64,000 nt of DNA from the NCBI RefSeq assembly GCF_003334385.1, contig NZ_QOWN01000008.1; one strand, given 5' to 3'. Source of the DNA: Escherichia coli (GTDB lineage: Bacteria > Pseudomonadota > Gammaproteobacteria > Enterobacterales > Enterobacteriaceae). Position numbers: made by a program. Shown here piece by piece: positions 19,237-20,810 of this stretch (the first letter of the stretch is position 1; each line of letters starts with the position of its first letter).

Positions 19237-20810
19237 TTACTCCAGAATGCAGCGCAAGGCGAGGAGTATCCCCGTCTCATCTCTCTGGTTTCAGGGTTAC
19301 AGTGCGTTGGCAGGATTTAACGCGTACGTCTTTTCAGAAGGAAATCGACAAAGCGGGAAGTTTGCCTGGAACAGGCGGCGATTGTCAATGATGTGAAAAA
19401 GGGAACCATCGGGTTCCCTTTTGTGTTAGTGCCGGAGGCCGCATTGGCGCGTAACGTCGGATGCGACGCTGGCGCGCCTTACCCGACCTACGGCGAATTA
19501 ATCTTTCAGCTTGCGCATTACCAGCGTGGCGTTGGTGCCGCCGAAGCCGAAGCTGTTAGACATAACGGTGGTCAGTTCGCGATCGGTCGTTTCGGTCACG
19601 ATGTTCAGACCTGCAGCCTGCTCGTCCAGCTCTTCAATGTTGATGCTCGGGGCGATAAAGCCGTGTTCCAGCATCAGCAGAGAGTAGATAGCTTCCTGTA
19701 CGCCAGCAGCGCCCAGAGAGTGACCGGTCATGGCTTTGGTTGCAGAAATCGCCGGGCTCTTATCGCCGAACACTTCACGGATAGCTGCCAGCTCTTTCAC
19801 GTCGCCAACCGGAGTCGAAGTACCGTGGGAGTTCAGGTAATCGATTGGGGTATCAACGCCATGCATCGCCATCTTCATGCAGCGTACTGCGCCTTCGCCA
19901 GACGGAGCAACCATGTCTGCACCATCAGAGGTTGCGCCGTAGCCAACGATTTCAGCATAGATGTGAGCACCACGCGCCAGCGCGTGTTCCAGCTCTTCAA
20001 CCACTACCATACCGCCGCCGCCAGCGATAACGAAACCGTCACGGTGAGCGTCGTAAGTACGGGAGGCTTTTTCCGGGGTGTCGTTGTATTTAGTAGACAG
20101 CGCACCCATTGCGTCGAATTCGCAAGCCATTTCCCAGCACAGCTCTTCGCCGCCGCCAGCAAACACGATGTCCTGTTTGCCCAGTTGGATCTGCTCTACT
20201 GCGTTACCGATACAGTGTGCGGAAGTCGCACACGCGGAGCTGATGGAGTAGTTAACGCCATGAATTTTAAACGGGGTGGCGAGGCAGGCAGAAACGCCGG
20301 ATGCCATCGCTTTGGTGACCACATACGGGCCAACCGCTTTCAGGCCGCGCGGGCCGCGCATTGCGTCAGCGCCGAACACCTGGAAACGCGGGGAGCCGCC
20401 GCCGGAACCTGCAATCAGGCCAACGCGCGGGTTATTCTGGTAAGCTTCCGGAGAGAGGCCCGCATCAGCGATTGCCTGCTCCATAGAAAGGAATGCATAA
20501 ATGGATGCGTCGCTCATAAAGCGCACAACTTTGCGGTCAATGAGGCCAGTGGTATCCAGTTTTACGTTGCCCCAGACGTGGCTACGCATGCCGGAATCCT
20601 TCAGCTCCTGAGAGAAAGTGATCCCTGAACGTCCTTCACGCAGAGATGCCAGGACTTCCTGCTGGTTATTACCGATGCTGGAAACAATGCCCAGGCCAGT
20701 AATCACTGCACGTTTCATTCAATACCTCTGTAAGTCGCACATAGAGTAAGTTTCGAATGCACAATAGCGTACACTTGTACGCCGAACAAGTCCGATCAGC
20801 CATTTAATAG

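What the first reader, a model, noticed from the sequence alone, without database searches (positions are those of the whole stretch)
20766..20801. Directly abutting FabR and FadR operator-like sites upstream of fabB
A perfect GCGTACA-CT-TGTACGC palindrome is followed within 3 bp by a 16/17 match to the FadR consensus. The sequence is consistent with dual repressor/activator control of unsaturated fatty-acid synthesis, and the tight spacing implies possible steric interplay between the two regulators.
Basis: partly seen in the sequence, partly recalled or inferred. Interest (0 to 1): 0.2.

Follow-up and report, generated by a model that had tools for sequence, protein, structure and literature searches.

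The report
Known E. coli fabB promoter operators
This is the well-studied control region of the E. coli fabB gene, where the activator FadR and the repressor FabR bind side by side to set unsaturated fatty-acid synthesis; it is real and conserved, but already described in the literature.

Summary
The window is E. coli chromosome. The finding lies in the 158-bp fabB–mnmC intergenic region, 48–83 bp upstream of the fabB start codon (fabB is on the minus strand). The perfect palindrome GCGTACA-CT-TGTACGC is real (20767–20782). Two bp further on is a FadR-type 17-mer (20785–20801, reading GGCTGATCGGACTTGTT in the fabB sense). The "16/17" claim does not hold: against the published consensus aaCTGGTCnGACC(T/A)Gtt the match is 13/17.

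Window 20755–20811 is identical to a published gel-shift probe (fabB_ec-BD), whose table legend says FadR sites and FabR palindromes are highlighted in the probes. [quoted passage not shown]

In an independent sample of fabB upstream regions, 28 of 30 Enterobacterales sequences that reach this far upstream keep both sites with the same 2-bp gap. Identity to E. coli is 0.96 inside the block and about 0.45 in the flanks.

The palindrome fills the 17-bp spacer between a −35-like TTGTTC, which is the 3' end of the FadR site, and the −10 TATTGT. Promoter geometry therefore explains the tight spacing without needing any FadR–FabR contact.

Verdict: real, functional, already known; low interest.

The parts
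19498..20718 (-). fabB coding sequence (beta-ketoacyl-ACP synthase I), the regulated gene
   Evidence: 406-aa ORF. The DNA is 100% identical to RefSeq E. coli records annotated fabB, with the start codon at window 20718.
20754..20756 (-). [quoted passage not shown]
   Evidence: [quoted passage not shown] Coordinates computed.
20761..20766 (-). -10 hexamer TATTGT of the fabB promoter
   Evidence: Its position relative to the published start site. The TAnnnT pattern (TATTGT/TAAAGT/TAGAGT) is kept in most of the aligned Enterobacterales genera. The assignment as the -10 is my inference.
20767..20782 (.). FabR operator core: perfect palindrome GCGTACA-CT-TGTACGC (18-mer form 20766-20783)
   Evidence: Exact coordinates. 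It lies in the published probe whose table legend marks predicted FabR palindromes. It matches the core ACAnnTGTnnnnT of PMC4804515. Identity across 32 Enterobacterales sequences is 0.94.
20784..20789 (-). -35-like hexamer TTGTTC (3/6 to TTGACA), 17 bp from the -10; overlaps the last 5 bp of the FadR site
   Evidence: Geometry computed. No consensus sigma-70 promoter passes the scan, as expected for an activator-dependent promoter. The assignment is my inference.
20785..20801 (-). FadR activator site GGCTGATCGGACTTGTT (about -46 to -30 from the start site)
   Evidence: It lies in the published probe whose table legend marks putative FadR sites. CTGATCGGACTTGTTC is identical to the E. coli fabA site over 16 nt. 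The 15-mer core is 0.98 conserved across Enterobacterales.
20812..20837 (-). Published CpxR footprint (-119 to -94 from the ATG), containing GTAAGgctgcGCAAA at 20816-20830; a third input to the same promoter
   Evidence: PMC7083825 DNase I footprint. Coordinates.
20877..22883 (+). Divergent neighbour mnmC (GTG start at 20877), which bounds the intergenic region
   Evidence: RefSeq annotation transferred from a 100% identical record. ORF.

Best explanation
Positions 20761-20801 are the core of the E. coli fabB promoter, read on the minus strand. FadR is a GntR-family dimer. It binds the 17-mer GGCTGATCGGACTTGTT centred near -38/-40 and overlapping a weak -35 (TTGTTC), and it helps RNA polymerase use this otherwise poor promoter. 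Long-chain acyl-CoA releases FadR, and activation is lost. FabR is a TetR-family dimer. It binds the palindrome GCGTACAAGTGTACGC, which occupies 16 of the 17 bp between -35 and -10, and so blocks polymerase. Its occupancy is tuned by the ratio of unsaturated to saturated acyl-ACP/CoA. Together the two sites set FabB level, and hence unsaturated fatty-acid synthesis.

Shown by sequence and comparison here: the identity of the sites, their coordinates, their conservation and the promoter geometry. Shown by others' experiments: binding and the regulatory direction. Inferred by me: the abutting arrangement is dictated by each protein's required position relative to -35 and -10, not by a need for FadR-FabR contact.
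For: 1. Identity of the locus. The 401 bp around the finding are 100% identical to E. coli chromosomes, present in 5426/5426 complete genomes and annotated fabB | mnmC.

2. Published probe. Window 20755-20811 equals the EMSA probe fabB_ec-BD of PMC4537474.

3. Literature on binding and regulation. FadR activates fabA and fabB and is released by acyl-CoA. FadR shifts fabB DNA, and a fadR mutation lowers fabB-lacZ 2-2.5-fold. [quoted passage not shown] At E. coli fabA, FabR overlaps -10 and FadR overlaps -40. FabR ChIP-qPCR is positive at Salmonella fabB, and fabB rises 3.1-fold in a fabR mutant. FabR-C18:1-ACP represses fabB and C16:0-ACP relieves repression.

4. Phylogenetic footprint that does not condition on the motif. 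fabB 5' ends were collected through a coding-sequence pattern. Of the 30 Enterobacterales loci whose sequence reaches this far upstream, 28 keep CTGAT[C/A]GGACTTGTT, then 2 bp, then the palindrome. In the 32-sequence alignment (31 loci plus the window; a 32nd locus, L073, was too truncated to include), identity to E. coli is 0.96 in 20765-20799, 0.43 in the upstream flank and 0.49 in the 5'UTR.

5. Within E. coli. Three divergent strains sampled from the identity ranking are invariant across 20761-20799.

6. Geometry. -10 TATTGT is at 20761-66, the 17-bp spacer is 20767-83, and -35-like TTGTTC is at 20784-89. This fits the published start site 37 bp upstream of the ATG.

7. fabA parallel. The fabA promoter carries the same CTGATCGGACTTGTTC, one further base, then a palindrome. 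It lies upstream of fabA in all E. coli genomes.
Against: Nothing contradicts it. There are four limits. (1) The primary papers (Campbell & Cronan 2001; Zhang et al. 2002; Zhu et al. 2009; Feng & Cronan 2009, 2011) are not held, so binding is cited through later papers and a probe table. (2) The FadR site is only 13/17 to consensus. (3) The -35 and -10 assignments are mine, and neither hexamer pair passes the generic promoter scan. (4) The ligand dependence of FabR binding is disputed in the literature.
Confidence: 0.95

Rival explanations
1. The 2-bp spacing exists because FadR and FabR interact physically on the DNA. The interaction could be steric exclusion, so that FabR binds well only once acyl-CoA has removed FadR, or a cooperative contact. 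On this view the composite is a single two-protein switch rather than two independent inputs to RNA polymerase.
For: The gap is invariant (2 bp) in 28 of 30 informative Enterobacterales fabB promoters and is also 2 bp at E. coli fabA and Shewanella fabA. The site centres are 18.5 bp apart, so the two bound dimers must be close neighbours. [quoted passage not shown]
Against: The same invariance follows from promoter geometry alone, since the FadR site ends in the -35 hexamer and the palindrome is the 17-bp spacer. The two halves evolve independently: Rosenbergiella keeps the palindrome and TTGTTC but has lost the FadR half, and Alteromonadales and Grimontia have the palindrome upstream of fabB without a FadR site. 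An offset of 18.5 bp is about 1.76 helical turns, which puts the dimer centres roughly a quarter turn apart around the helix rather than on the same face. No held paper reports competition or cooperativity.
Confidence: 0.15
2. The palindrome and the FadR-like 17-mer are chance sequence features with no regulatory role.
For: Generic perfect 7-2-7 inverted repeats occur about 4-7 times per 64 kb. The FadR match is imperfect at 13/17.
Against: The specific palindrome is expected about 2.4e-4 times per window. The block is 0.96 conserved across Enterobacterales against about 0.45 in the flanks. It matches the published probe exactly, and binding and regulation have been published.
Confidence: 0.01
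3. The conserved block mainly serves the divergent gene mnmC rather than fabB.
For: The region is a shared 158-bp divergent intergenic region. A possible mnmC promoter (TTGCGC-17-TAAGAT, 20817-20845) lies only about 16 bp beyond the FadR site.
Against: The block sits at -12 to -46 of the mapped fabB start site. The same composite occurs at fabA, which has no mnmC neighbour. fabB, not mnmC, tops the list of genes upregulated in a Salmonella fabR mutant.
Confidence: 0.04

Closest known systems
E. coli K-12 fabB promoter (FadR site at about -40; FabR/YijC palindrome between -35 and -10)
   Same: It is the same locus. The sequence is identical to the published probe fabB_ec-BD. The gene neighbours (fabB | mnmC) are the same. 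The position relative to the published start site is the same.
   Different: Nothing differs in the element. The window's strain carries T at 20804, where about 43% of E. coli genomes have a single-base difference from the 57-bp probe; in the two such strains examined that difference is an A at 20804, outside both sites.
E. coli fabA promoter (FadR -40 site plus FabR site)
   Same: The FadR core CTGATCGGACTTGTTC is identical over 16 nt. The gap to the palindrome is the same 2 bp, and the order FadR, then FabR, then -10 is the same. Regulation runs in the same direction.
   Different: The fabA palindrome is imperfect (GCGTACACGTGTTAGC). The fabA promoter overlaps the 3' end of the ycbZ coding sequence. 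fabA has additional start sites. FadR dominates at fabA whereas FabR dominates at fabB.
Shewanella oneidensis fabA promoter
   Same: It has a composite FadR site, 2 bp, then a FabR palindrome (AGCTGATCGGAGTTGTT-TA-GCTTACACGTGTTCGC).
   Different: In Shewanella only fabA, not fabB, carries a FadR site. This agrees with my scan: Shewanella surugensis fabB (L053) showed neither site.
Pseudomonas aeruginosa DesT (FabR homologue) operator at fabAB
   Same: A TetR-family repressor of unsaturated fatty-acid genes binds a related palindrome upstream of fabA.
   Different: The order is reversed: the DesT site lies upstream of the putative activator site. No FadR homologue is involved, and DesT plays only a modest role at fabAB.

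Membership tests
FabR (YijC, TetR-family) operator | Palindromic sequence matching the published FabR motif (core ACAnnTGTnnnnT, in an approximately 18-bp palindrome) | tested here: met
   In the fabB sense, GGCGTACAAGTGTACGCT contains ACAAGTGTACGCT. The arms form a perfect 7+2+7 repeat at 20767-20782. The core motif is from PMC4804515. The sequence is identical to the palindrome-bearing stretch of the probe in PMC4537474.
FabR (YijC, TetR-family) operator | Location within the promoter of a FabR-regulon gene (fabA, fabB, yqfA), at or next to the -10 region | tested here: met
   The palindrome is 49-64 bp upstream of the fabB ATG. That is about -27 to -12 from the published start site, directly abutting the -10 TATTGT.
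FabR (YijC, TetR-family) operator | Conservation in orthologous promoters (the way the site was first discovered, by phylogenetic footprinting) | tested here: met
   All 32 Enterobacterales loci score 12-14 of 14 specified positions. In addition, 9 non-Enterobacterales fabB upstream regions score 12/14 or better, against roughly 0.07 expected by chance (my calculation).
FabR (YijC, TetR-family) operator | Physical binding by FabR and derepression in a fabR mutant | not testable with these tools
   Published. ChIP-qPCR is positive at Salmonella fabB, and fabB rises 3.1-fold in a fabR mutant (PMC4804515). The E. coli primary papers are not held.
FadR (GntR-family) operator | 17-bp site matching aaCTGGTCnGACC(T/A)Gtt | tested here: met
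The site scores 13/17 overall and 10/12 at the capitalised core positions. It is the best match in the window. It is identical over 16 nt to the fabA activator site.
FadR (GntR-family) operator | For activation, position upstream of or overlapping the -35 region (not over the start site, as at repressed fad genes) | tested here: met
   The site spans about -46 to -30 from the published start site and overlaps the -35-like TTGTTC by 5 bp. The rule is stated in PMC9329746.
FadR (GntR-family) operator | Physical binding by FadR, released by long-chain acyl-CoA; lower fabB expression in a fadR mutant | not testable with these tools
   Published. Wild-type FadR shifts fabB DNA in EMSA, the W60G mutant does not, and fabB-lacZ falls 2-2.5-fold in a fadR mutant (PMC4259882). 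FadR also shifts the fabB_ec probe (PMC4537474).

The most novel reading that the evidence does not exclude
The invariant 2-bp gap between the FadR site and the FabR palindrome is kept across Enterobacterales at fabB and repeated at fabA. It could reflect a direct FadR-FabR interaction on DNA, either mutual exclusion or a contact that changes one protein's affinity. That would make the composite a single integrated acyl-CoA/acyl-ACP switch rather than two independent inputs. My evidence does not exclude this, but promoter geometry explains the spacing equally well.
Probability: 0.12. Interest if true: 0.3.

Novelty: already known. Interest (0 to 1): 0.05.

Why it matters
This is a textbook case of one promoter integrating two lipid signals. 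Exogenous fatty acids act as acyl-CoA through FadR, and the saturated:unsaturated acyl-ACP ratio acts through FabR, together setting membrane fluidity. Recovering it from raw sequence shows that the first-stage reader can recognise real operators, but it adds nothing new to biology. The small added value here is twofold. The footprint shows the composite is fixed across Enterobacterales and comes apart outside that order. And the palindrome is the promoter's 17-bp spacer, which gives a simple reason for the tight spacing.

Tried and rejected
1. Primary papers. I tried to read Campbell & Cronan 2001 (PMC99677), Feng & Cronan 2009 (PMC2785586) and 2011 (PMC4072462), Zhu et al. 2009 (PMC2787350) and McCue et al. 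2001 (PMC30389). None is held, so footprint coordinates are taken from later papers.

2. Binding interplay. I searched for text on simultaneous or competitive FadR/FabR binding and found nothing explicit.

3. Promoter scan. The generic sigma-70 and terminator scan of 20650-20950 found no sites on either strand. This fits a weak, activator-dependent promoter, but it does not independently support my -35/-10 assignment.

4. RNA families. An Rfam scan of 20500-21100 at E <= 1 gave no hit, so I rejected an RNA-element reading.

5. Consensus matching. I tested several versions of the FadR consensus.

6. Palindromy alone. I rejected it as evidence of function, because 7 perfect 7-2-7 repeats occur in the window against about 4 expected.

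7. One search call failed on term syntax.

Full report
WHAT IS THERE

The window is Escherichia coli chromosome. The 401 bases around the finding are 100% identical to RefSeq E. coli genomes, occur in all 5426 complete genomes, and are annotated fabB | mnmC. fabB (beta-ketoacyl-ACP synthase I) is the 406-aa ORF at 19498-20718 on the minus strand. mnmC starts with GTG at 20877 on the plus strand. The finding therefore lies in a 158-bp divergent intergenic region, 48-83 bp upstream of the fabB ATG, and should be read on the minus strand.

OBSERVATION CHECK

The stretch 20766-20801 reads AGCGTACACTTGTACGCCGAACAAGTCCGATCAGCC. The perfect palindrome GCGTACA-CT-TGTACGC is at 20767-20782. After a 2-bp gap, 20785-20801 reads GGCTGATCGGACTTGTT in the fabB sense.

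The exact palindrome is unique in the window, with about 2.4e-4 occurrences expected. The 17-mer is the best match in the window to the FadR core, with 1 mismatch to CTGGTCNGACNTGTT. Perfect 7-2-7 inverted repeats as a class are not unusual: 7 occur in the window against 4.3 +/- 1.8 in shuffles.

The site scores 13/17 against ANCTGGTCCGACCTGTT and against the published aaCTGGTCnGACC(T/A)Gtt. It scores 16/17 only if four positions are treated as N.

WHAT IT IS

Window 20755-20811 is base-for-base the published gel-shift probe fabB_ec-BD. The legend of that primer table says putative FadR sites are in bold and predicted FabR palindromes in bold italics (PMC4537474).

Held papers give the following:
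- FadR activates fabA and fabB and is released by long-chain acyl-CoA.
- Wild-type FadR shifts fabB promoter DNA, and a fadR mutation lowers fabB-lacZ 2-2.5-fold (PMC4259882).
- At E. coli fabA, FabR overlaps the -10 region and FadR the -40 region (PMC3462791).
- FabR occupies the fabB promoter in vivo in Salmonella, and fabB is the most derepressed gene in a fabR mutant, at 3.1-fold (PMC4804515).
- FabR bound to C18:1-ACP represses fabB, and C16:0-ACP relieves repression (PMC11525553).
- The fabB start site is 37 bp upstream of the ATG, and a CpxR footprint lies at -119 to -94 from the ATG, which is window 20812-20837 (PMC7083825).

INDEPENDENT TEST BY COMPARISON

To avoid selecting on the motif, I collected fabB 5' ends from one genome per species using a degenerate pattern inside the FabB N-terminal codons. 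I then scanned and aligned their upstream DNA.

Thirty-two of the loci are Enterobacterales. Two (L073 Pantoea stewartii and L086 Arsenophonus) are cut short upstream. L086 still covers both sites; L073 stops before the FadR position, so it is uninformative for the composite and was left out of the alignment.

Of the 30 remaining loci plus L086 minus L073 — that is, the 30 informative ones apart from L073 and counting only those scored — 28 keep CTGAT[C/A]GGACTTGTT, then 2 bp, then GC[G/T]TACANNTGTA[C/A]GC. These include Escherichia, Citrobacter, Enterobacter, Yersinia, Serratia, Pectobacterium, Brenneria, Erwinia, Pantoea, Photorhabdus, Xenorhabdus and Arsenophonus. Edwardsiella has a 3-bp gap. 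Rosenbergiella keeps the palindrome but has lost the FadR half.

In the 32-sequence alignment (31 loci plus the window), mean identity to E. coli is:
- 0.96 over 20765-20799
- 0.43 in the upstream flank
- 0.49 in the 5'UTR

Outside Enterobacterales, most Vibrionaceae show neither site upstream of fabB. Grimontia and several Alteromonadales-type genera (Colwellia, Rheinheimera, Alishewanella, Arsukibacterium, Thalassotalea) have a 12-14/14 palindrome without an abutting FadR site. The published remark that the fabB FadR site is not conserved in Vibrio and Shewanella agrees with this.

Within E. coli, the 57-bp probe is found in all genomes. In three divergent strains I aligned, all differences fall outside 20761-20799. 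No Rfam family matches the region.

HOW IT WORKS

With the published start site at about 20755, the -10 hexamer is TATTGT (20761-20766). The 17-bp spacer is 20767-20783, which is the palindrome plus one base. The -35-like hexamer is TTGTTC (20784-20789), which is the last five bases of the FadR site plus one.

FadR therefore sits at about -46 to -30, overlapping a weak -35 like an activator that contacts polymerase there. FabR fills the spacer and abuts the -10, where a bound dimer would exclude polymerase. No consensus sigma-70 promoter is detected by the generic scan, which fits dependence on an activator.

The hexamer assignments and the "geometry explains the spacing" argument are my inference. 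Binding and the regulatory direction come from the literature.

The E. coli fabA promoter carries the same arrangement: an identical 16-nt CTGATCGGACTTGTTC, the same 2-bp gap, then an imperfect palindrome.

THE STERIC-INTERPLAY IDEA

The site centres are 18.5 bp apart, about 1.76 helical turns, so the two dimers are close neighbours offset by roughly a quarter turn around the helix. The invariant gap is compatible with direct interplay. It is equally well explained by each site's fixed position relative to -35 and -10, and the two halves are separable in evolution (Rosenbergiella; Alteromonadales). I found no held text reporting competition or cooperativity, and the primary papers that might settle it are not held. 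I give direct interplay about 0.12-0.15.

COMPARISON AND NOVELTY

This is not merely similar to the known fabB promoter; it is that promoter. All sequence-level membership features of a FabR operator and of a FadR activator site are met. Physical binding cannot be tested here but has been published. Novelty: already known. Interest is low, at 0.05.

Noticed in passing
window 40295-40309 and 40319-40333 (plus strand), upstream of the ORF at 40413-41759: Two FadR-type sites, CTGGTCCGACCTATA and CTGGTCTGATTTCTA, lie about 80-120 bp upstream of a 448-aa outer-membrane-type ORF. From its sequence and its neighbours I take this ORF to be fadL. The pair corresponds to the two published fadL FadR operators (PMC3460868).
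   Followed up: partly
window 39609-39625, about 30-40 bp upstream of the ORF at 38272-39582 (minus strand): A FadR-type palindrome (GTGGTCTGACCTGAT on one strand, CAGGTCAGACCACTT on the other) lies just upstream of a 436-aa thiolase-like ORF that I take to be fadI. It is probably the fadIJ operator. This window therefore holds at least four FadR sites at three promoters.
   Followed up: no
window 20813-20845: A second conserved block, AAATTTGC (GCAAATTT in the fabB sense), lies inside the published CpxR footprint. The other CpxR half-site, GTAAG (20826-20830), is not conserved across genera and varies even within E. coli (GTCAG in strains STEC799 and Ec-U18). On the plus strand, TTGCGC (20817-22), 17 bp, then TAAGAT (20840-45) could be the mnmC promoter; TAAGAT is conserved across most of the aligned Enterobacterales genera.
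   Followed up: partly
L082 (Rosenbergiella epipactidis), fabB upstream region: The FabR palindrome and the TTGTTC -35-like hexamer are intact, but the FadR half is degenerate (GAGTATAGGGGGTTGTTC). This is a natural uncoupling of the two sites. I did not check whether fadR is absent from this genome.
   Followed up: no
L013, L017, L038, L048, L056, L062, L071, L076, L093 (Rheinheimera, Colwellia, Grimontia, Alishewanella, Arsukibacterium, Thalassotalea): FabR-type palindromes scoring 12-14/14 lie 87-240 bp upstream of fabB without an adjacent FadR site. Most Vibrio, Photobacterium and Aliivibrio fabB upstream regions show neither site.
   Followed up: partly
window 20804: About 43% of complete E. 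coli genomes (2317 of 5426) differ from the 57-bp probe at one position. In the two such strains examined, the difference is A instead of T at 20804, 3 bp beyond the FadR 17-mer. The effect is unknown.
   Followed up: partly
window 6804, 19971, 28721, 52897, 62406, 62454: Six other perfect 7-2-7 inverted repeats occur in the window. The one at 19971 lies inside the fabB coding sequence, and the pair at 62406 and 62454 are only 48 bp apart. None was examined.
   Followed up: no
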